Source: Microcoleus sp. (lineage in GTDB: Bacteria > Cyanobacteriota > Cyanobacteriia > Cyanobacteriales > Microcoleaceae). From it: a stretch of 64,000 nucleotides of DNA. Of this stretch, positions 28,433 to 39,404 are shown in pieces. Below the pieces are notes generated by a model, which saw only the letters and a list, made by a program, of their open reading frames with translations, was not told where the DNA came from and did no database searches. Position 1 is the first letter of the stretch, and every line of letters begins with the position of its first letter. The translations under genes and the position numbers were made by a program. The stretch is taken from positions 704,001 to 768,000 of the forward strand of contig JAYFMW010000006.1 in NCBI GenBank assembly GCA_042408215.1. The letters run 5' to 3'.

Positions 28433-28537
28433 ATATCAAATCCGGTAGCATCGGAATTATTCATCTTTCTCTTCTCTCCCTCTGCGCCCTCTGCGCCCTC
28501 TGCGGTTAAATCATTCCGATGCAACCGGAAACGATAT
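28433..28537. mobile_element. MITE with ATATCAAATCCGGT[T/A]GCATCGG terminal repeats (family targeted by the group II intron)
   Basis: ATATCAAATCCGGTAGCATCGGAAT ... ATTCCGATGCAACCGGAAACGATAT around a CTCTGCGCC repeat. Confidence 0.75.
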
Positions 28538-29124: not shown

Positions 29125-32100
29125 ATGTTTGATGAATTACTGTATCTAGAAATAACCAACCTGCGCCAGAAGCTAGCTCACCTAGAAAGAGAAATGCAGT
29201 CTCAAACCTGGTTCAAAAAGCTGCAAGCCCTGATGGGAGTTATTGGCAAAATTCGCGAATCCCTAGACTTAGAAACAATATTCAAAACTACAGCAACCGA
29301 AGTTCGGCAACTCCTAAATGCCGATCGCGTCGCTGTTTACCGCTTCCTCCCCTCATCCGAATGGAACGAAGGCGAAGTTGTATCAGAAGATGTACTGCCC
29401 CTATACAGCCCATCCCTAGGAACAAGAGTTCATGACCACTGCTTCGGCGAACAATTTGCAGCCAACTACCAAAAAGGCTACGTTCAAGCTGTCACCGATA
29501 TCTATAAAGCCCGGTTGAGCCCTTGTCACCTCAAAATCCTCAAACGATTTCAAATCCGAGCTAACTTAGTCCTACCCCTGCTGCAAGGACAACACCTGTG
29601 GGGATTGCTTTGCATTCACTCCTGCGGCCAACCCCGCGAATGGCAACCAGACGAAATCGAATTTGCCAAGCAAATATCACAACACCTAGCAATCGCCATC
29701 ACCCAAGCCGAATTGCACTCGCAAACTCAAAAACACCTACAAGAAATCGATCGCACGCAACAACAACTGCGGGAAAGCGAAAAAAGATATCACCAAATTC
29801 TCGACTCGATCGCCGATATGGTATTAGTCAAAGGCCCTGAATCAAAAATCCTCTGGGCTAATCAAGCATTTCGCGACTATTACGGCATGAGTGAAGAGGA
29901 ACTTCAAGGCATTATAGACGCACCTTTCAACATTCCTGACTACACTCTCCAATACATTAAAGATGACACCTTCGTATTTGAAACCGGACAAACTCTGGCA
30001 ATTCCCGAAGAACCGATCGTGCGCCACGATGGAGAAGTGCGACTGTTTAGTACCGTCAAAACACCCATCCGCAACGAAGAAGGAGACATCACAATGACTG
30101 TCGGTGTCTCCCGCGACATGACGGAACGCAAATTAGCAGAAGAATCACTGCAAGCCAGCGAAACCAAATACCGCCGCCTAGTAGAAACCTCCCAAGACAT
30201 GATTTGGTCAGTCGATGCCCAAGGTTGCTATACTTTCGTCAACCCAGCAGTTGAATACATCTACGGTTACGACGCAGCAGAAATGCTCGGTAGGCCCTTT
30301 TCCGACTTTGTGACACCAGAACAACTTCAGAAAGATTTAAAGGTTTTCGCCCGCCTGCTTGCCGGAGAATCAATTTTTCAGCATGAGAGCGCACAAATCG
30401 CTAAAGACGGTAGCATCAAATATCTGATGTTCAATGCGATCGCCCTGTACGACGACACAGGCAATGTCCTCGGCATCACAGGCACGGCTACCGACATTAC
30501 CGATCGCAAACGCGCAGAGTCCGCATTGCAACACGCCAACGCAGAACTAGAGCGCAGAGTAGAAGCACGCACAGCCGAACTGCACGCGACTTTTGCAGCC
30601 CTGGGTGCCAGCGAAAGCCGGTTTAGAACCATTGCGGCTACCATCCCCGGAGCTTTGTTCCAGTTTTGCAACCGTGACGGAGTTTGGCGCATTGACTACA
30701 TGAGCGATCGCATCTTCGAGATCAGCGGTGTCACAGCAGCAGCAATGACGCAAGACATCCATACATTCATTTCCCGCCTCCACCCTGATGACTTCCAAAG
30801 CTACATCGCTTCTGTCACCGAAGCCGTAGACAACCTTTCCCTCTGGCACTACGAAGGGCGATTAGTCAAGCCCGACGGCGCAATTCGCTGGTGGCAGGGC
30901 GACTCAATGCCCACCCGCAGCCAGAACGGCGAAATCGTATTTTGCGGCGTTTTGCTCGACATTACCGATCGCCAAGTCGCCGAAACCGCCATTCGCGAAA
31001 GCCAACGACAGCTACAAGAAGCCCAGAGACTCGCCCACGTCGGCAATTGGGAACTCGATGTCACAACGGGAACCGTCACTTGGTCAGAGGAACTCTTCCG
31101 CATCCACGGACTCGAACCAGCGGCCACAGCACCCACCAGAGAAGAGAATGTCGCTCTGATCCATCCAGAAGATTTGGAATTGTGGGGAACCCAAGTACAG
31201 CGGGGACTCCAAGCAGGCATCCCCTTTGATTTTGACCTCCGCATCCTCCGTCCCGACGGCACGCTGCGACACCTGAACGCCCTGGGCAGAGCTGAAACTG
31301 ATGCCAACGGCAAGGTGGTAAAATTGTTCGGTACTGCGATCGACATTACCGAGCGCAAAAACGCTGAAGCAGCCCTGCGACAAGCAGCAGCCGAGTTGGA
31401 AGGCAGAGTGAGCGATCGCACGGCAGAGTTGTCCCAAGCCGTCGCCCAGTTAGAACAAGAAATCGGCGAGCGCAAAAACGCTGAAGCAGCCGTGCAAATT
31501 TCCGCACAAAACCTGCGAACTATATTTAACAATGTCTACGATGCTATCTTCATTCACGATTTAGAAGGCAACATTCTTGATGTCAATAATCGAATGTTGG
31601 AAATGTACGGAGTTAGCGCCTCCCAAGCAACAAAATTATCAGTTAAAAACGACTATTCCACGGCGGAAAATCCCGTAGAAGAATTCGGAGAAATTTGGCA
31701 AAGGGTAATAGCAGGAGAAACAGCCCGCATTGAATGGAAAGCTAGGCGCCCCCATGACGGTTCAACTTTTGATGCAGAAATTGCCTTGTCTAAAATTAAT
31801 CTCAATGGCAATGTTAGCATCATTGCCAACGTGCGAGATATTAGCGATCGCAAACTTGCAGAAACAGAACTCCAACACGCCCAAAAGTTTATGGAATCCG
31901 TACTCCAAACCATACCCGTAGCAGTAGTTGCCAAAGAAGCAGCAGAATTGCGATTTGTACTGTGGAATCCAGCCGCCGAACAGTTACTCGGTTTCCCCGC
32001 AGCGGAAGTTATGGGCAAAAACGACCATGACTTTTTCCCCAGAGAACAAGCCGACTTTTTCACCGCCAAAGACCGGGAAGTGCTCGCCAGCGGCCAGATT

Positions 32101-33684
32101 TTAGACATTCCCGAAGAACTAATTCAAACCAGAGAAGGCGAGACTCGCATATTTCATACCAAAAAAACCGCAATTCTCGATCGATTTGGCACTCCCGAAT
32201 ATTTATTAGCAATTATTCAAGACATTACCGATCGCAAGTTGGGAGAACTGGCTTTGAGGGAATCGTCAGCCCGACTCAAGCAGCAGGCCGATCGAGAAAA
32301 ATTGCTCAACAGCCTCACAACTCAAATCCGCAATTCCCTCGACTTCGACAGCATCATTAGTGTCGCTGTCCAAGAAATGCGCGCTTTCATGCAGATCGAT
32401 CGTTGCTATTTTTCCCAGTACCGGATCCAACAAGAAGAGGCATTTTGGGAAATTATTAAAGAATCTCGCACCAGAGAACTTCCCGATTTAATCGGTTCCT
32501 ATAAAGCTTCTGACTTCGGCACTATAGGAGAACACCTCTTGCGTCTAGAAACGCTGCAAGTCGATGATGTCGGAGCAACCGCAGACCCTGTTTGGAAACA
32601 GTCTCTTAGCTCTCTGGGCTACCAATCTGTCTTGGCAATTCCGATGCAGGCACTTTCGGGAGTCGTGAGCGTTGTTACCTGCGCCCACTCCGCTTCTGTG
32701 CGGCCCTGGAGTCACAGCGAAGTCGAATTGTTGCAAGCGATTACAGTTCAATTGGCGATCGCCCTCAATCAAGCCGATCTTTACACCCAAACTCTCAATA
32801 AAGCTCGCGAATTAGAGCAAACTTTACAGAAATTAAGAAGCGCTCAATCGCAGTTAGTTCAAAGCGAAAAAATGTCATCTCTCGGTCAGTTAGTTGCAGG
32901 AGTCGCCCACGAAATTAACAACCCAGTTAACTTTATTTACGGCAACCTCACCCACGCTAACGAGTATACCCAAGACTTGCTCCACCTGATCGAACTTTAC
33001 CAAAACCACTATCTCGATCCAGTCCCGGAGATTCAAGACGAAATAGAAAATATTGACCTTGATTTTCTCATGGAAGATTTGCCTAAATTGCTGACGTCCA
33101 TGAAAGTCGGTGCAGACAGAATTCAACAAATAGTTGCTTCTCTCCGCACTTTCTCCCGCATGGACGAAGCGGAAATGAAAGCAGTTAACATTCATGACGG
33201 CATAGATAGCACCTTAATGATTTTGCAGCACCGCATCAAAGCTAAACACAATCATCCAGAGATTCAAGTGATTAAAGAATACAGCAAATTGCCCTTAGTA
33301 GAATGTTATGCCGGCCAGTTAAATCAAGTATTCATGAATATCTTGAGCAATGCTTTGGATGCTTTGGAAGACAGGGACTCGCGGCTTTCTGCTGACGAAA
33401 TGCGTCAAAATCCCAGCCAGCTCCGCATCTGCACTGAAATGCCTTCATCCTCGCGGGTAATCATTCGGATTGCTGACAACGGGCCGGGAATGACAGAGAG
33501 TGTCTGTCATCGACTTTTTGACCCGTTTTTTACCACTAAACCTGTGGGTAAAGGCACTGGAATGGGCTTGTCCATTAGCTACCAAATTGTTACAGAACGG
33601 CACGGCGGCTCCCTGCATTGCACTTCTTCCCCCGGATTTGGTGCAGAATTTGCGATCGAGATTCCCCTGAAAGCTAATTGCTAA
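29125..33684 (+). CDS. Cyanobacteriochrome GAF-PAS(n)-GAF histidine kinase
   Basis: GAF1 carries DHCF and PCH cysteines; multiple PAS/PAC domains; HEINNP and GKGTGMGL. Confidence 0.92.
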   Translation: MFDELLYLEITNLRQKLAHLEREMQSQTWFKKLQALMGVIGKIRESLDLETIFKTTATEVRQLLNADRVAVYRFLPSSEWNEGEVVSEDVLPLYSPSLGTRVHDHCFGEQFAANYQKGYVQAVTDIYKARLSPCHLKILKRFQIRANLVLPLLQGQHLWGLLCIHSCGQPREWQPDEIEFAKQISQHLAIAITQAELHSQTQKHLQEIDRTQQQLRESEKRYHQILDSIADMVLVKGPESKILWANQAFRDYYGMSEEELQGIIDAPFNIPDYTLQYIKDDTFVFETGQTLAIPEEPIVRHDGEVRLFSTVKTPIRNEEGDITMTVGVSRDMTERKLAEESLQASETKYRRLVETSQDMIWSVDAQGCYTFVNPAVEYIYGYDAAEMLGRPFSDFVTPEQLQKDLKVFARLLAGESIFQHESAQIAKDGSIKYLMFNAIALYDDTGNVLGITGTATDITDRKRAESALQHANAELERRVEARTAELHATFAALGASESRFRTIAATIPGALFQFCNRDGVWRIDYMSDRIFEISGVTAAAMTQDIHTFISRLHPDDFQSYIASVTEAVDNLSLWHYEGRLVKPDGAIRWWQGDSMPTRSQNGEIVFCGVLLDITDRQVAETAIRESQRQLQEAQRLAHVGNWELDVTTGTVTWSEELFRIHGLEPAATAPTREENVALIHPEDLELWGTQVQRGLQAGIPFDFDLRILRPDGTLRHLNALGRAETDANGKVVKLFGTAIDITERKNAEAALRQAAAELEGRVSDRTAELSQAVAQLEQEIGERKNAEAAVQISAQNLRTIFNNVYDAIFIHDLEGNILDVNNRMLEMYGVSASQATKLSVKNDYSTAENPVEEFGEIWQRVIAGETARIEWKARRPHDGSTFDAEIALSKINLNGNVSIIANVRDISDRKLAETELQHAQKFMESVLQTIPVAVVAKEAAELRFVLWNPAAEQLLGFPAAEVMGKNDHDFFPREQADFFTAKDREVLASGQILDIPEELIQTREGETRIFHTKKTAILDRFGTPEYLLAIIQDITDRKLGELALRESSARLKQQADREKLLNSLTTQIRNSLDFDSIISVAVQEMRAFMQIDRCYFSQYRIQQEEAFWEIIKESRTRELPDLIGSYKASDFGTIGEHLLRLETLQVDDVGATADPVWKQSLSSLGYQSVLAIPMQALSGVVSVVTCAHSASVRPWSHSEVELLQAITVQLAIALNQADLYTQTLNKARELEQTLQKLRSAQSQLVQSEKMSSLGQLVAGVAHEINNPVNFIYGNLTHANEYTQDLLHLIELYQNHYLDPVPEIQDEIENIDLDFLMEDLPKLLTSMKVGADRIQQIVASLRTFSRMDEAEMKAVNIHDGIDSTLMILQHRIKAKHNHPEIQVIKEYSKLPLVECYAGQLNQVFMNILSNALDALEDRDSRLSADEMRQNPSQLRICTEMPSSSRVIIRIADNGPGMTESVCHRLFDPFFTTKPVGKGTGMGLSISYQIVTERHGGSLHCTSSPGFGAEFAIEIPLKANC

Positions 33685-33783
33685 TTTATTAGTTGTTAGT
33701 TGTTATTTGTGACGATCGCTGAGTGGAAATATTTTTTTGTGATTGAAATAAAAAAAATCGCCCCTTTTTTGAAGGTTAAAGGC

Positions 33784-33898
33784 TTGACTTTCAGCATTTA
33801 ATTAAGTATAATCTTATAATGGGAGTGGTGGCAAAATTTTTAGTGCTGCCACCACTCCCATTATCTAAAATATACCACCAATAGTCCAGCAAAGTCAA
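33784..33898. promoter_or_regulatory. Face-to-face sigma70-type promoters flanking an 18-bp perfect hairpin (copy 1)
   Basis: Plus strand: TTGACT(33784)-17-TATAAT(33807). Minus strand: TTGACT(33898)-18-TATATT with TG extension. Hairpin arms 33816-33833 and 33847-33864. Confidence 0.65.
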
Positions 33899-34196
33899 TA
33901 GGCAATCCTTCTTTTTTAGGGCCGAGCAGTTATACCAAATCCGGTTGCATCGGAATGATTAAACCGCGAATCCGCCACAAGCGCTTTCGTCAGAACTGCA
34001 TCTTCTTCTCGATCTGACGAAAACGGTTGATTTAATCTGACTCCATCAGCGTTCATCCCTGTTCATCCGCTGAGATCTGCGGTAAAAAACTGCCAATCTA
34101 ACAATCGATTTTTAAAAGCATTTCTTCGCCCGGAGTTGGTGCAGAATTTGCGATCGAGATTCCCCTGAAAGCTAATTCTTAATTTGTTCGTTGTTA

Positions 34197-35082
34197 GATC
34201 AAATCCTCTCTTCATCGGAATAGTAAATTCGAGTTAACAGTTAACAGTTAACTGTTAACTGTTAACTGTTAACTGTTAACTGACGGTGCAGTTAGAGAGT
34301 CGATGGCAGAGTGTCCCCCACCATCTCTCCTACAAAACCGTGCTTGCGACTTTCACCGCACACGGCTCCTGAGTGATGTAATCCTGGTTATGGATACAGT
34401 ACGATCGCATCACGAGATGATTTATACCGCTTGATAGTTTTCCTTTTACCCCTACATCCCACCATCAGATTTTTCTGTGGCATTAGGCTTTTAAAGGGTT
34501 ACTCAGTCTCAATCTTTTACACCACCGGGCGCTGTCAGCAGATCTCTGCTATTACAGCAGAGCTTTAGCTTCTGCAACCATCCCTCACACTCACAGCTTA
34601 CGGCTAGCAACCTACTTATTTTTAAGGGCTGTGAGAGCTTTACTTCGTTCCGATTACACATTGGTTGAACATGACAGCGTAATGCTTTCCACCGGGTTTT
34701 TTGGGCAGTGCTGATAAGTCAATCCGATAATTGCTTATGCCCTATCCTTGCCTTTTGGCTTGGTCTATCAGCCATTTGACCATCTATCATAACGGTGGTT
34801 CAGACACATTTTTGCTTTCGCTACGCATATGTTCTGGCTCGACAGCTACTCCATTTGGCTAAGAGTCTTTCTGCCTTTTATCCCCGCTTTATCCTGTTAG
34901 TTGCTACCTAACAAAATAGGGGATATGCTTTTACCGCTGCACCTGCGGACTGGGACTTGACTTAACGTCTCACCCAGAAGTGTAATCAGTTATCACTAAC
35001 TCGCAGCGGAGTCAGGCTAACCGTCCCTGGATAGGAGAACCTATCCATTTAGGCTAAACGAATCGCACACCGGAATTGATAT
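34197..35082. mobile_element. MITE flanked by TA and interrupted by the group II intron
   Basis: Absent from the paralogous duplicated unit (GTTGTTAGTTGTT). Worn left end GATCAAATCC...CATCGGAAT; the right end is restored by removing the intron. Confidence 0.7.
34291..35068 (-). ncRNA. ORF-less group II intron ribozyme (probably class IIB), 778 nt
   Basis: 5' end GTGCGATTCG; domain V GAGCCGTGTGCGGTGAAAGTCGCAAGCACGGTTT (34368-34335); domain VI-like hairpin ending AAC; EBS1 AUCGGA (34728-34723) pairs with IBS1 UCCGGU; domain IV only ~140 nt. Confidence 0.92.
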
Positions 35083-35169
35083 TAGTTGTTATTTGTTACG
35101 ATCGCTGAGTGGGGATATTTTTTTGTGATTGAAATAAAAAAAATCGCCTGTTTTTTGAAGGTTAAAGGC

Positions 35170-35284
35170 TTGACTTTCAGCATTTAATTAAGTATAATCT
35201 TATAATGGGAGTGGTGGCAAAATTTTTAGTGCTGCCACCACTCCCATTATCTAAAATATACCACCAATAGTCCAGCAAAGTCAA
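35170..35284. promoter_or_regulatory. Face-to-face promoters plus hairpin (copy 2)
   Basis: Identical to 33784-33898. Confidence 0.65.
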
Positions 35285-35501
35285 TAGGCAATCCTTCTTT
35301 TTTAGGGCCGAGCAGTTATACCAAATCCGGTTGCATCGGAATGATTAAACCGCGAATCCGCCACAAGCGCTTTCGTCAGAACTGCATCTTCTTCTCGATC
35401 TGACGAAAGCGTCAGATGCGACGAAAGCGGTTGATTTAATCTGACTCCATCAGCGTTCATCCCTGTTCATCCGCTGAGATCTGCGGTAAAAAACTGCCAA
35501 T

Positions 35502-38500
35502 CTAACAATCGATTTTTAAAAGCATTTCAGCGATCGCGTTACTGTCCAAAGGTTTAAAAAACAAATATCCCTGAGCAAGTTCGCATTCGAGTTCTCTCAA
35601 TTGTGCTAACTGTTCTACTGTCTCAACACCTTCTGCGATCGCATTCAATCCCAAATTGTGAGCCAAAGTCACGATCGCCCGCACAATTTGTAAAGGTTGT
35701 TCCCCGCCGTCACCGTTTTCCCTCGCCCCCAAGCGGCTCACAAAAGAGCGATCGATCTTCAGCGTATCCAGCGGAAAACGGTGCAAATAACTCAAAGACG
35801 AATAGCCCGTACCAAAATCGTCGATCGACAACCGAATCTTTCTAGATTTCAATTGGGCGAGTACCGTACTGGCTTTGTTCACATTTTCGACGATCGCACT
35901 TTCAGTAATCTCCAATTTTAAACAGCTCGGATCGCAGCCTGTTTCTGCTAAAATTTCATCGATTTGTTCAATCAAATTCGGTTGACCTAACTGTTTAGCA
36001 GAAAGATTGACGCTCATTGTTAATTGCTCATTGATAATTGGGAATTGGGAATTGGGCATAGGGCATAGGGCCTTGGGCACGATCAGTTGCCGAACTTCCT
36101 TCTGACTTCCCGGCGTTACATCCGTTAAATCCGTTACAGAATCCGTTGCCGAACTTCCTTCTCCCTGGATTAAAAGTTCTTGCCAAACGCGCAATTGGCG
36201 GCAAGCTTCCCGCAGCACCCAAGTTCCCAGAGGCACAATCAGACCCGTTTCTTCAGCCACAGGAATAAAACTAGATGGCGACACTAAACCCCGCACCGGA
36301 TGATACCAGCGCACCAAAGCCTCAAAACCCTCGATCGCACCGCTGGCGATCGAAACAATTGGTTGATAGTGCAGAATAAAGTGCGAAATTTCATCCAGGC
36401 TCTTCCCTAATTCCTGCTTTCCCAAAATAGCCAACCGCAAGTCAGTTTCTAACTGCAACAGCGACATAGTTTGGTCGTGCATCGCCAAATTAAACACCTC
36501 GTGGCGGGCCTTGCCTAAAGCTTTAGCACGATACATAGCAATGTCAGCATCCCGCAGGAATTCTTCCGGGTGAGCCTGCACAGAGCACTGCTGACTATTC
36601 GACAAGCCACTCTCGGCTGCTGTGAGCTCCTCTCTGCTGAAAACAATGCCAATGCTAGCGCTGGTGAATACTTCATGACCTTCGAGATTAAAGGGTACTG
36701 TCAATTCTTTTTGTATTCTGTTAGCGGCCTGGGTAGCGTCGCCGAGGTTCTGAATGCTGTCTAGCAGGATGGTAAACTCGTCTCCACCGAGTCGCGCTAC
36801 CGTATCAGAAGCACGCACGCAATCCTGAAGCCGCTGCGCGAGGGTAATTAGCAGTTTGTCGCCGAGAATATGTCCTAAAGAATCATTAACTACTTTGAAG
36901 CGGTCTAAATCTAGGAAGAGGACGGCAAATTTGTAATCTGGGGAATTTTGAGAACGGTGTATAGCTTGTCCTAGCCGATCGATAAACAAGAGGCGGTTTG
37001 GCAAACCCGTAAGCGCATCGTGACAGGCATCGTGCAGCAGTTGCTGTTCTACTCGTCGGCTCGCGGTAACATCTCTAATCATAATCTGCGCGGCTGCTAA
37101 GCCCTGATAAATAGCGGGTATGCCGACAACTTCTACGTCTATTATTTGTCCGTCGAGCCGGATCATTTTTTCTTCAGCGAGGTCGAACGGCCTGTTTTCT
37201 TCCTCTACTTGCCGGATTCGCTCTTTGGCTATTTCCACATAGTTTTGATGGACGAAATTCAATACAGGAAAGCCGATTAGCTCCCTCGGAGAGCAGGCAC
37301 CGAGAAGTTTAGCACCGGCTGCATTGATATATGCGATTTTCCCTTGACTGTAAACCGCGATCGCTTCGGGAGACTGTTCTACCAAACGGCGGTAGCGTTC
37401 TTCACTTTCTTGCAGAGATACTATCAACTCCGAACGCTCTTGTTCTGCTTGCTGGCGTTCCACTTCCCTTTGGTGATCGGCGAGAAATCTACCTATGCTT
37501 TGAGCCATCAATTCTATTATTTCTATGGTCTGGGATTCAAAGGTTTTTCTCCTGACCTCTCGCGCCGAAAAACTCAAGGTGCCGTAGATTTTATTATCTA
37601 TAAATATCGGCGTTCCAATGTAAGATTCGATCTGCCATTTTTGATAAGCTGGATGTTCGCACATTTCTAAGGTTCCTCCTATGTGGGAACAGGCCATTGT
37701 TTGCTTGAATTTAATCACTGCGGCACAGTAAGTATCGCTAAGCTTTAATTCTAAACCTCGTGTAAAATATTCTAAATCTGTTCTCACCGAGCGAATCATA
37801 AAAGATGACTCCTCAACTTGAGCAATCATGCCAATAGAAAGTCCGAAAATCAAACAGCCTGCTTTTAGATAATCATCCACAAGTTCTTCAAAATTTTGAT
37901 AGTGATAAGTTGTAATCCGGTGCAGGTGTTTGAGGTTGGCACTAAAAGTTGCTAAATCTTGAGATTTTAAAAATAATTCTTCTTCCGCTCGCTGGCGGTC
38001 GGTGATGTCGGTCTGAACTCCAATAAAGTGAGTTAAGTGCCGGCGCGAGTTGTAAACCGGAGCAATAGAAAGTTCGTTCCAAAAAAGCGAGCCATCTTTC
38101 CGAAAATTCTGCAATATAACTTGAGAAGTCCTGCCTTCTTCAATAGCATTTCGCAGCTCTTGTACAGCCTCCCGACTCGTGTCTGGGCCCTGCAATAATC
38201 GGCAATTTTTACCAATTAATTCGGATCTGCCATAACCCGTGATCCGCTCAAAACTGGGATTGAGATAAATAATTGGATTGTCGGCAAGCGTCGCATCGGT
38301 AATCACAATGCCGTTGGTGCTGCTTTCGATCGCCCTTTCCATCATTTGCAACCGTTCCGACGATCGAATCCGCTCGATCGTGGCGGCTAACAAATTGGCG
38401 ATCGCCTCCAGAAAATAAACGTCATCTTGGTTAAAAACTCGCTCGTCCTTGGTGTGAACCCCCAAAACCCCCCAGACAGGAGCTTCAACAGTGTTCGTTG

Positions 38501-39404
38501 ATTCTACTTGTCCCCACGGACTTTTCCCCTGTCCCCTATAGCCAGGAACGATCACGGTCACACCACTCACGGCTCGGTGGTTGTGCAGCAGCGGCGACTC
38601 ACTAAACCGCGTTTCCACCGGCAAATCTGTGACGATCACCGGTTCGTTAACTAACAATGTATAACCAGCTTGAGAGCGGGCCGAAGCGGTGACACTGGCG
38701 CTACCGACCAGCCCAGGCCCCCAGCCGACACCCGATCGCAACAGAAAAGCATGACCCGATGGCAACAGTTCCAACAACTGACAATAATCGACATCCAGGG
38801 TTTGGGCAATTAACACCGCTGCTTTGTCCATCAGTGCCGACAAATCTGTTTCAGCGATCGCCTCATGTCCCAAGTAAGCGACGGCTGCTTGCTGACGGGC
38901 CCGCAAGTGGATTGACCCGAGCAATTCCTGCTCTAGCGCTGCGACTCTCTTGCGCTCGGTAATGTCGCAGAACACCGACAGAACAACTTTTTCCGACTGC
39001 AATGTCAGATACCGCATTGATACAGTTGCCCAAAACAGCGTGCCGTCCGCCTTTTTCAGGCGGACTTCGGTCTCGCGCACCAGTCCCTCAACAGCGAGGA
39101 TATCCAGCAATTCCTGGCGCTCTGCTGGATTGTTGTAGAGTGTTTCGGCTTTTTGGCGGTGGAGGGACTCGGATGCTGTCAGTCCGAAGGCCATACGGCA
39201 TAAATCGTTACAATACAGAATTGTGCCATCAGCTAGACTGCCGATCGCCAGTGGCACCGGCATCGAGTCGGCGATCGTCAGAAATAATTCTTGAGTGTCT
39301 TGCACCGCTTCCTGCATTCCTGTCTGGAAGGCACAGCCCTCACAGTCTTGGGAGATAAAACTTGCGAGTTTTTGATTGATCCATTGCGATAATTTATTTT
39401 GCAC
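35502..39404 (-). CDS. PAS-GAF-LOV-GAF-PAS-GGDEF-EAL c-di-GMP enzyme
   Basis: [12 protein letters not shown] motif, RLGGDEF, FEALVRW and [10 protein letters not shown]. Confidence 0.93.

What the first reader, a model, noticed from the sequence alone, without database searches (positions are those of the whole stretch)
34291..35068. ORF-less group II intron whose exon-binding sites match the terminal repeat of an abundant MITE
Seen: a complete minus-strand ribozyme (GUGCG...domain V...AAC) with no room for a reverse transcriptase. Removing it restores ATATCAATTCCGGT|TGCACCG, the terminal repeat of a MITE family. EBS1 (AUCGGA in a hairpin loop, 34728-34723) pairs 6/6 with IBS1 UCCGGU (one G-U), and a candidate EBS2 UGAUA (34789-34785) pairs with UAUCA at -13 to -9. 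Unoccupied matching sites occur at 28516-28537(-) and 28433-28446, and with an IBS2 mismatch at 33940 and 35326. Known: ORF-less introns can be mobilised in trans by a related intron-encoded protein. Inference: a nested parasite that uses a self-spreading non-coding repeat as a renewable safe target and disables that MITE end. The candidate branch A lies at -10 rather than -7/-8, so lariat formation may be impaired.
Basis: partly seen in the sequence, partly recalled or inferred. Interest (0 to 1): 0.85.

Follow-up and report, generated by a model that had tools for sequence, protein, structure and literature searches.

The report
ORF-less group II intron in MITE ends
A small self-splicing intron that has lost its own copying enzyme has recently spread to five places in this Microcoleus genome, each time into the end hairpin of an abundant short mobile repeat, a clear new example of a habit already described for cyanobacterial introns.

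Summary
Window 35068->34291 (minus strand) is a complete 778-nt group II intron with no reverse-transcriptase ORF. Rfam RF00029 matches domains V/VI at 59.4 bits.

The genome (a Microcoleus) holds 5 copies that differ at one base at most. All five lie after an ATATCA..TC.GGT repeat end. Four lie in ATATCAATTC[C/T]GGT|TGCA[C/T]CG, inside four different MITE bodies, so these are separate insertions.

The consensus fold puts EBS1 in a terminal loop. In relatives with other insertion sites, both loops change to match their own exons.

A local tandem duplication gives an empty and a filled copy of the MITE site, with the 3-bp duplication CTA.

The same intron lineage (>=93% identical) sits in the same repeat end in 13 other Microcoleus assemblies. 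ORF-less introns form one group on a DI-DIII tree.

Two steps are inferred, not shown: mobilisation in trans by a resident RT-maturase-HNH protein, and splicing.

The closest known case is the Thermosynechococcus ORF-less introns (Mohr 2010). I rate this a new variant of a known kind, of moderate interest.

The parts
34291..35068 (-). ORF-less group II intron, 778 nt, domains I-VI
   Evidence: GUGCG...CUAAC. Consensus fold has 217 pairs, 36 with compensatory changes against 14.1+-2.6 in shuffles.
35077..35081 (-). IBS2 (UAUCA, positions -13 to -9 of the 5' exon)
   Evidence: Pairs 5/5 with EBS2. Relatives pair in the same register.
35069..35074 (-). IBS1 (UCCGGU, positions -6 to -1)
   Evidence: Pairs 6/6 with EBS1, one of them G-U.
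34290..34290 (-). First base of the 3' exon (T), candidate IBS3
34785..34789 (-). EBS2 (UGAUA), unpaired in an internal loop of domain I
   Evidence: In L027 it is UCUAA against exon UUAGA, in L078 UCUUA against UAAGA, and in the C17 intron UUUGCAA against UUGCAAA.
34723..34728 (-). EBS1 (AUCGGA) in the 8-nt terminal loop 34730-34723
   Evidence: The closing stem has 2 pairs with compensatory changes. The loop co-varies with the exon in the C30, C17, L027 and L078 introns.
34687..34687 (-). Candidate EBS3 (A in GGAAAG)
   Evidence. A faces exon T, and U faces exon A in L027, L078, C17 and C6. L079 and L023 do not fit, so this stays a candidate.
34461..34481 (-). Domain IVa-like hairpin with a bulged A, a possible binding site for the intron protein
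   Evidence: Helix 31. One search shows a like hairpin plus GGUGGRAUG in 17 RT-bearing relatives. The binding role is inferred.
34336..34367 (-). Domain V
34294..34330 (-). Domain VI; bulge CGA at 34302-34300, candidate branch A34300 at -10
   Evidence: The 6-bp basal helix is invariant in 12 of 12 ORF-less sequences. RT-bearing relatives lack a CU dinucleotide here, which puts their A at -8.
34198..35082 (-). Host MITE (107 nt without the intron): ATATCAATTCCGGT [intron] TGCACCGTCAG, heptamer repeats, then ...GGATTTGAT
   Evidence: Many intron-free sibling copies at 92-96% identity in the same genome.
35083..35085 (-). Target-site duplication CTA, left
34195..34197 (-). Target-site duplication CTA, right
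33697..33699 (-). Single CTA at the paralogous empty site in the other copy of the tandem duplication

Best explanation
This is a non-autonomous (ORF-less) group II intron of the chloroplast-like IIB kind. It copies itself by retrohoming: the excised intron RNA reverse-splices into DNA wherever its EBS2 and EBS1 loops pair with UAUCA-NN-UCCGGU. That sequence is the outer arm of the terminal hairpin of an abundant family of short mobile repeats (MITEs). The reverse transcriptase, maturase and endonuclease it needs are supplied in trans, most likely by the intact protein of a resident related intron (the C30 copy, 571 aa). Those related introns themselves sit in tnpB genes of insertion sequences. 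Shown here: the ribozyme anatomy, the multi-copy near-identity, the exact insertion points, the pairing and its covariation, the mobile nature of the repeat, and the same association in other species. Inferred: splicing, the identity of the helper protein, and any effect on the MITE.
For: There are 5 copies. Three are identical and two share one C>T change. They lie in four different MITE bodies plus one variant repeat end, so they are separate insertions and not copies of one MITE. In relatives with other targets, the EBS1 and EBS2 loops change to match their own exons: C30, C17, L027, L078. The fold is supported: 97.2% of cells paired, and 36 compensatory pairs against 2-6 in the slid controls. 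Across the 31 junctions (5 own plus 26 in 13 other Microcoleus assemblies), IBS1 pairs 6/6 in 23 and IBS2 5/5 in 28. There are 123 TATCA..TCCGGT sites against 3.7 expected, and only 3 are occupied. The MITE is shown to be an insertion with TSD CTA. Two intact proteins carry RVT_N, RVT_1, GIIM and HNH domains. A IVa-like hairpin is kept in the ORF-less lineage.
Against: Resident RT-bearing introns are only 67-71% identical over domains I-III, and their domain V differs, so helper compatibility is unproven. The C17 protein has YPDD where YADD is usual. The bulged A is at -10, not -7/-8, and a ~40-nt domain I hairpin present in relatives is missing. One sub-lineage copy (L028) matches its exon poorly at EBS1. 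Eight of the 31 junctions pair less than 6/6 at IBS1, and for truncated copies the EBS1 could not be read.
Confidence: 0.75

Rival explanations
1. The copies are fossils. The burst happened when a cognate intron protein was present, and that protein has since been lost; the resident proteins cannot act on this ribozyme, so the intron is now immobile.
For: No RT-bearing intron closer than 71% is in this genome, and none closer than 76-78% was found among the relatives searched. Domain V resembles that of an RT-bearing intron in another species (L087) more than any resident one.
Against: Three copies are identical and two differ by one base. A strain whose copy is 99.6% identical carries it at a site not seen here (L075). 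The lineage is multi-copy in several assemblies, with 7, 5 and 4 junctions in three of them.
Confidence: 0.13
2. The intron spreads at the DNA level, either as a passenger of MITE transposition or by recombination or gene conversion between MITE ends, and not by reverse splicing.
For: The flanks are repeated DNA, so short homology exists on both sides.
Against: The host MITE bodies differ in four ways, and the repeat ends themselves differ (TTCCGGT or TTCTGGT; TGCACCG or TGCATCG), while the intron is identical. The C20 copy has an unrelated 3' flank. Sub-lineages with changed EBS loops sit in matching non-MITE sites, which only RNA-guided targeting explains.
Confidence: 0.07
3. The element has been taken over by the host, for example as a structured RNA or a regulatory insert between the two convergent sensor genes, and its position in a MITE is incidental.
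For: It lies between a PAS/GAF histidine kinase gene and a PAS/GAF-GGDEF-EAL gene, with promoter-like matches upstream on its strand.
Against: The five copies have unrelated neighbourhoods. The promoter matches are consensus hits only, and they lie in a duplicated segment.
Confidence: 0.03

Closest known systems
Thermosynechococcus elongatus TeI3 ORF-less introns (Mohr, Ghanem & Lambowitz 2010, PMC2882425; I read the abstract and sections 7 and 10)
   Same: Cyanobacterial CL/IIB1-type introns without an ORF. [quoted passage not shown] Families have diverged EBS sequences. They insert preferentially in other mobile elements, which the authors say 'provide new unoccupied sites'. The resident intron protein here is closest to the solved TeI4h protein (6ME0, E 3e-106).
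   Different: There the targets are an intron ORF and an IS200-family element, ISEL1, and all introns are 85-100% identical. Here the target is the non-coding terminal hairpin of a MITE family, with over 100 free sites per genome. The ORF-less group is only 67-78% identical to any RT-bearing intron found. It is spread over many species of a mesophilic genus.
Bacterial group II introns resident in insertion sequences, such as RmInt1 in ISRm2011-2 (recalled; only a search listing of PMC4615759 was seen), and the general retroelement pattern of Dai & Zimmerly 2002 (seen only in reference lists)
   Same: The intron homes into a site carried by another mobile element, away from host genes. The RT-bearing relatives in this genome do exactly this, in tnpB of an IS607-type element.
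   Different: Those introns carry their own protein, and their target lies inside a transposase-bearing IS, not in a 107-nt non-coding repeat.
Class IIC introns that insert after terminator stem-loops or in integron attC sites (recalled, not read here)
   Same: The target is a DNA sequence able to form a hairpin.
   Different: IIC introns insert downstream of the stem, use a short IBS1 and have no EBS2. Here the insertion is inside the hairpin, between its 5' arm and the loop, with full EBS1 and EBS2 pairing and a IIB-type relative set. I did not test whether the hairpin structure itself matters.
Insertion sequences and a group II intron associated with REP elements (Tobes & Pareja 2006, PMC1525189; one table row seen)
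   Same: Mobile elements use abundant extragenic palindromes as targets. The table lists the Pseudomonas putida KT2440 group II intron as REP-associated in 2 of 9 copies.
   Different: That association is partial and no pairing rule is shown. Here 5 of 5 copies are associated and the pairing rule is explicit.
Group I intron carrying a MITE in Thiomargarita ('MITEtron', PMC4853749; passages seen)
   Same: An intron and a MITE are nested.
   Different: The nesting is the other way round (the MITE is inside the intron), and that intron is group I.

Membership tests
Group II intron ribozyme | Domain V with the catalytic AGC triad and domain VI, matching the curated model | tested here: met
   RF00029, 59.4 bits against a cut-off of 40, full model 1-77.
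Group II intron ribozyme | Conserved termini: 5' GUGYG and 3' AY | tested here: met
   GUGCG...AAC. The boundaries are fixed by comparison with 21 exact empty sites.
Group II intron ribozyme | Six-domain secondary structure supported by covariation | tested here: met
   217 pairs, 97.2% of cells paired, 36 compensatory pairs against 14.1+-2.6 in shuffles and 2-6 in slid controls. The structure was derived from the same alignment.
Group II intron ribozyme | EBS1-IBS1 and EBS2-IBS2 pairing with the 5' exon | tested here: met
   6/6 and 5/5. Both loops co-vary with the exons in relatives.
Group II intron ribozyme | Bulged branch-point A in domain VI, 7-8 nt from the 3' splice site | tested here: inconclusive
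   A bulged A exists but lies at -10 above a 6-bp helix. This is invariant in 12 of 12 ORF-less sequences; RT-bearing relatives have it at -8.
Group II intron ribozyme | Self-splicing or protein-assisted splicing | not testable with these tools
Subclass IIB / chloroplast-like (CL) lineage | EBS3-IBS3 pair, and an intron protein of the CL type | tested here: inconclusive
   Candidate EBS3 A34687 co-varies in 4 relatives but fails in 2. Proteins of the related introns are closest to TeI4h (6ME0), and Mohr 2010 calls those introns CL/IIB1. No Rfam D1-D4 family matched at E<=1.
ORF-less (non-autonomous) group II intron | No intron-encoded protein, with related protein-coding introns in the same genome | tested here: met
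   The longest internal ORF is 50 aa, and tblastn found no RT hit. Of 3 related RT-bearing introns, 2 have intact ORFs.
ORF-less (non-autonomous) group II intron | Mobilisation or splicing by a protein acting in trans | not testable with these tools
   Inferred from near-identical copies at separate sites.
MITE | Short, non-coding, multi-copy | tested here: met
   107 nt without the intron. About 420 ends within 2 mismatches of the 14-mer. Paired ends cluster at <40 bp (19 pairs) and 100-150 bp (37 pairs).
MITE | Terminal inverted repeats | tested here: met
   Example at 28433-28537: ATATCAAATCCGGTAGCATCGG...CCGATGCAACCGGAAACGATAT. In the host copy the right end is diverged.
MITE | Target-site duplication, with an empty site available for comparison | tested here: met
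   CTA is single at the empty paralogue and flanks the filled copy on both sides. This is one case only.
MITE | A partner transposase with matching ends | tested here: inconclusive
   Eight of the 11 end pairs 0.6-5 kb apart were examined, leaving out the three that are spaced by an intron copy. None encloses a transposase-like ORF (judged by eye from the first residues; no family search was run).

The most novel reading that the evidence does not exclude
The ORF-less introns of Microcoleus are one old lineage that lost its protein gene once. It has since persisted and diversified across the genus as a SINE-like dependant of protein-coding introns. Sub-lineages have re-tuned EBS1 and EBS2 to new targets, and the main branch tracks the terminal hairpins of MITE subfamilies, a target that renews itself. 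This would run against the published view that ORF-less derivatives are rare and short-lived in bacteria (PMC4424553, passages).
Probability: 0.5. Interest if true: 0.6.

Novelty: new variant of a known kind. Interest (0 to 1): 0.45.

Why it matters
The case shows a three-tier dependency. A ribozyme without its own enzyme depends on protein-coding introns, and it lives in a repeat that in turn depends on someone else's transposase. The targeting rule can be read directly from the sequence.

It extends the Thermosynechococcus model of intron proliferation in three ways. The host is a mesophilic, soil- and mat-forming genus. The target is non-coding and far more abundant. The ORF-less lineage appears much older than in Thermosynechococcus.

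It also offers a natural test of how far the branch-point distance in domain VI can vary without loss of mobility. In practice, assemblies of this genus break at these copies, and annotation pipelines that look for the RT gene will miss them.

Tried and rejected
Those shares are not evidence.

Rfam at E<=1 on the intron gave no D1-D4 group II family. Besides RF00029 it gave one sub-threshold plastid domain-V family match over domain V, plus chance microRNA and snoRNA hits on the heptamer array.

Partner transposase. I looked at 8 of the 11 end pairs 0.6-5 kb apart, leaving out the three that are spaced by an intron copy. They enclose ordinary-looking genes.

A closer RT-bearing parent. The best found are 75-78% identical over domains I-III (L029, L030, L031). 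L087 shares the domain V type but is 66% identical in domain I.

Orthologous presence/absence of the intron. The best orthologue of the flank (G005, 95%) lacks the whole MITE, so it says nothing about the intron.

Literature searches:
- 'group II intron' + 'ORF-less' + 'MITE': 0 papers.
- 'group II intron' + 'Microcoleus': 2 papers, both irrelevant.
- 'group II intron' + 'miniature inverted-repeat': 18 papers, none describing this by title or abstract.

Earlier scan notes by sequence: none.

In one search the regular expression also hit 5 unrelated places, which I ignored.

Full report
WHAT IS THERE

On the minus strand, window 35068 to 34291 reads GUGCG...CUAAC and is 778 nt long. Rfam at gathering threshold found one family in the whole 64-kb window: RF00029 (group II domains V/VI) at 34370-34294(-), 59.4 bits against a cut-off of 40, covering the full model. 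The longest ORF inside the element is 50 aa. A tblastn with a resident intron protein finds nothing in it. So it is a group II intron without a protein gene.

The window is G000:C6:704001-768000 of a 7.36-Mb genome in 30 contigs. Record titles of matching loci from other genomes name the genus as Microcoleus.

COPIES AND THEIR SITES

The genome holds five full-length copies. Three are identical and two share a single C>T at position 542. Their flanks are:
- ...TAATATCAATTCCGGT|TGCACCGTCAG+heptamers (window)
- ...TAATATCAATTCCGGT|TGCACCGTCAGG+heptamers (C30)
- ...TAATATCAATTCCGGT|TGCACCGGAATGATAT (C6:102205)
- ...TTATATCAATTCTGGT|TGCATCGGAATGATTTAACCGCAGAG (C6:417046)
- ...TTATATCAAGTCGGGT|TAAATAGTC (C20)

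The first four are four different bodies of one repeat family. The intron is the same while the repeat differs, so these are separate insertions and not copies of one carrier. The fifth site has one IBS1 mismatch. It resembles another repeat-end type found elsewhere in the genome, ATATCA.GTC.GGT|TAAAT.

The joined word ATATCAATTCCGGTTGCACCG occurs 21 times exactly and 75 times at up to 2 mismatches. TATCA..TCCGGT occurs 123 times against 3.7 expected from base composition, and 3 of those sites are occupied. The looser wobble pattern is less enriched: 595 observed against 299 expected.

THE REPEAT IS A MOBILE INSERTION

About 420 ends lie within 2 mismatches of ATATCAATTCCGGT. Paired ends cluster below 40 bp (19 pairs, a bare ~30-nt hairpin ATATCAATTCCGGT-TGC-ACCGGAATGATAT) and at 100-150 bp (37 pairs). 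An example with both ends is at 28433-28537.

The intron's surroundings happen to be a tandem duplication: 33620-34124 and 34118-35528, at 91-98% identity. One copy is empty (...AACAA CTA ACAAC...). The other carries the 107-nt repeat with the intron, flanked by CTA on both sides. That is a target-site duplication, so the repeat meets the usual marks of a MITE. No partner transposase was found.

The exact free 20-mer is present in 40 of 41 sampled genomes of the genus, and a reversed control pattern in none.

EXON-BINDING SITES

A consensus fold was made of 12 ORF-less sequences. They were chosen from 19 full-length ones by dropping 4 own near-identical copies and 3 duplicates of the same records. 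The fold has 217 pairs. 97.2% of cells are paired. 36 pairs show compensatory changes, against 14.1+-2.6 in shuffles (0 of 500 reach it) and 2-6 in slid controls. One caution: the structure was derived from this same alignment.

AUCGGA (34728-34723) lies in an 8-nt terminal loop whose stem has two compensatory pairs. UGAUA (34789-34785) is unpaired in an internal loop.

The stronger test is comparative. At the same alignment columns, introns with other insertion sites carry other loop sequences, and these pair with their own exons:
- C30: GUCCAU against exon AUGGAU, and UGAUAAA against UUUAUAA (6 of 7).
- C17: UUUCCU against GGGAAA, and UUUGCAA against UUGCAAA.
- L027: GUUUAC against GUAAGU, and UCUAA against UUAGA.
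- L078: CGUUAC against GUCACG (5 of 6), and UCUUA against UAAGA.
- L028 fits EBS2 with a one-base shift and fits EBS1 poorly.

A candidate EBS3 (A34687) co-varies with the first 3'-exon base in four relatives but not in L079 or L023.

OTHER GENOMES

Full-length copies at 93-95% identity were found in four other genomes of the genus among 36 searched. Contig-end fragments at 97-100% were found in two more. The exact 30-nt 5' end occurs at 26 loci of 13 named Microcoleus or Microcoleaceae assemblies, with 7, 5 and 4 loci in three of them.

Over these 26 junctions plus the 5 own, IBS1 pairs 6/6 in 23, 5/6 in 6, and less in 2. IBS2 pairs 5/5 in 28, 4/5 in 2 and 1/5 in 1. For copies cut by contig ends, the EBS1 could not be read. 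Where the 3' exon is visible it is again the hairpin (TGCA[CT]CGG..., TGTATCGG..., GGCATCGG..., TACATCGG...).

Some fragments in G003 and G031, and the 82% relative L079, lie in other hairpin-like repeat ends.

LINEAGE

On a maximum-likelihood tree of domains I-III (34 distinct rows), the 17 ORF-less rows fall on one side of a branch. Support is UFboot 94 and SH-aLRT 100, and 93% of 200 bootstrap trees agree. All 17 other rows have an RT ORF just downstream, and none of the 14 ORF-less loci checked has one.

The tree is unrooted, so a single ORF loss is consistent with the data but not proven. ORF-less sub-lineages are 76-86% identical to the main one, and they share the layout of domain IV.

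HELPER PROTEINS

The genome has nine domain V matches: the five ORF-less copies, three related RT-bearing introns, and one other. It has four RT matches.
- The C30 intron encodes an intact 571-aa protein with RVT_N, RVT_1, GIIM and HNH domains and a YADD motif.
- The C17 intron encodes 579 aa with YPDD.
- The C6 copy is 5'-truncated and has an in-frame TGA.
- The fourth RT ORF is 328 aa and has no maturase or HNH domain.

The closest solved structure is 6ME0 (E 3e-106). From memory, that is the Thermosynechococcus TeI4h intron particle.

These RT-bearing introns are 67-71% identical to the ORF-less intron over domains I-III. They sit in or next to tnpB genes. For C30 the exon is OrfB_IS605 plus Cas12f1-like TNB, with a serine recombinase upstream. 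This agrees with two earlier notes of this scan.

The ORF-less lineage keeps a hairpin with a bulged A followed by GGUGGGAUG. It corresponds in position and layout to a hairpin around the start of the ORF in 17 RT-bearing relatives, where the stem shows compensatory variants (helix 31). I read this as a retained protein-binding site. That is inference.

ODDITIES

- The bulged A of domain VI is at -10 above a 6-bp helix. RT-bearing relatives lack a CU dinucleotide there and have the A at -8. The -10 layout is invariant in all 12 ORF-less sequences, so it has not stopped the lineage from spreading.
- The main lineage also lacks a ~40-nt domain I hairpin that is present in relatives.
- No RNA data could be laid.

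COMPARISON WITH WHAT IS KNOWN

Mohr et al. 2010 (PMC2882425; abstract and sections 7 and 10 read) describe 17 ORF-less CL/IIB1 introns in Thermosynechococcus. These are mobilised by proteins of related introns. They are split into families by EBS sequence and are inserted preferentially in other introns and in an IS200-family element. The authors say such elements provide new unoccupied sites. That is the same logic as here.

Zimmerly & Semper 2015 (PMC4424553; passages) call bacterial ORF-less introns rare and their derivatives short-lived.

What is different here:
- the target is a non-coding MITE terminal hairpin with over a hundred free sites;
- the similarity to any protein-coding intron is low;
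- the spread is genus-wide with apparent single ancestry;
- the domain VI geometry is unusual.

I found no paper on group II introns in MITE ends or in Microcoleus in the library searched.

VERDICT

Mobilisation in trans, splicing, and any harm to the MITE remain inferences. It is a new variant of a known kind, of moderate interest.

Noticed in passing
window 33620-34124 and 34118-35528: Tandem duplication of a ~500-bp unit between two convergent sensor genes, at 91-98% identity. The second copy carries the MITE and intron, so the first serves as an empty site. The duplication overlaps the 3' ends of both genes.
   Followed up: partly
window 33816-33864 and 35202-35250: An 18-bp perfect inverted repeat with a 13-nt loop (ATAATGGGAGTGGTGGCA...TGCCACCACTCCCATTAT), present in both copies of the duplication. 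Promoter-like matches overlap it on both strands.
   Followed up: no
window 34232-34282: The heptamer array inside the MITE switches from (TTAACAG)n to (TTAACTG)n and so forms a near-perfect palindrome.
   Followed up: no
G000:C30:354040-356487(-), C17:622668-625078(+), C6:777316-779673(-), C6:785186-785208(-): The RT-bearing relatives, and a 23-nt 5' fragment, all lie in or beside tnpB genes. The C30 host is an IS607-type element with a serine recombinase upstream.
   Followed up: partly
L021:1174-2913 (G000:C17): The intron protein has YPDD where the RT active-site motif is usually YADD. The ORF is otherwise intact at 579 aa.
   Followed up: no
G000:C30:82317-83584(+): A fourth group II domain V (51.7 bits) with an RT ORF of only 328 aa that lacks maturase and HNH domains. 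It may be a decayed intron of another lineage.
   Followed up: no
L027, L028, L078 (G019, G008, G005): ORF-less sub-lineages, 77-82% identical to the window's intron, with different EBS loops, inserted in non-MITE sequence. L028 fits its exon only after a one-base shift.
   Followed up: partly
L081-L086 (G003, G031) and L079 (G021): Copies or fragments with 97-100% identical ends lie next to other repeat ends of the type ...CCA.AAT.TCTGTAGGG. This suggests variants of the intron aimed at other hairpin repeat families.
   Followed up: partly
window 29125-33684(+) and 35502-39404(-): The flanking genes are a 1519-aa PAS/GAF histidine kinase and a 1300-aa PAS/GAF-GGDEF-EAL protein, arranged convergently.
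   Followed up: yes
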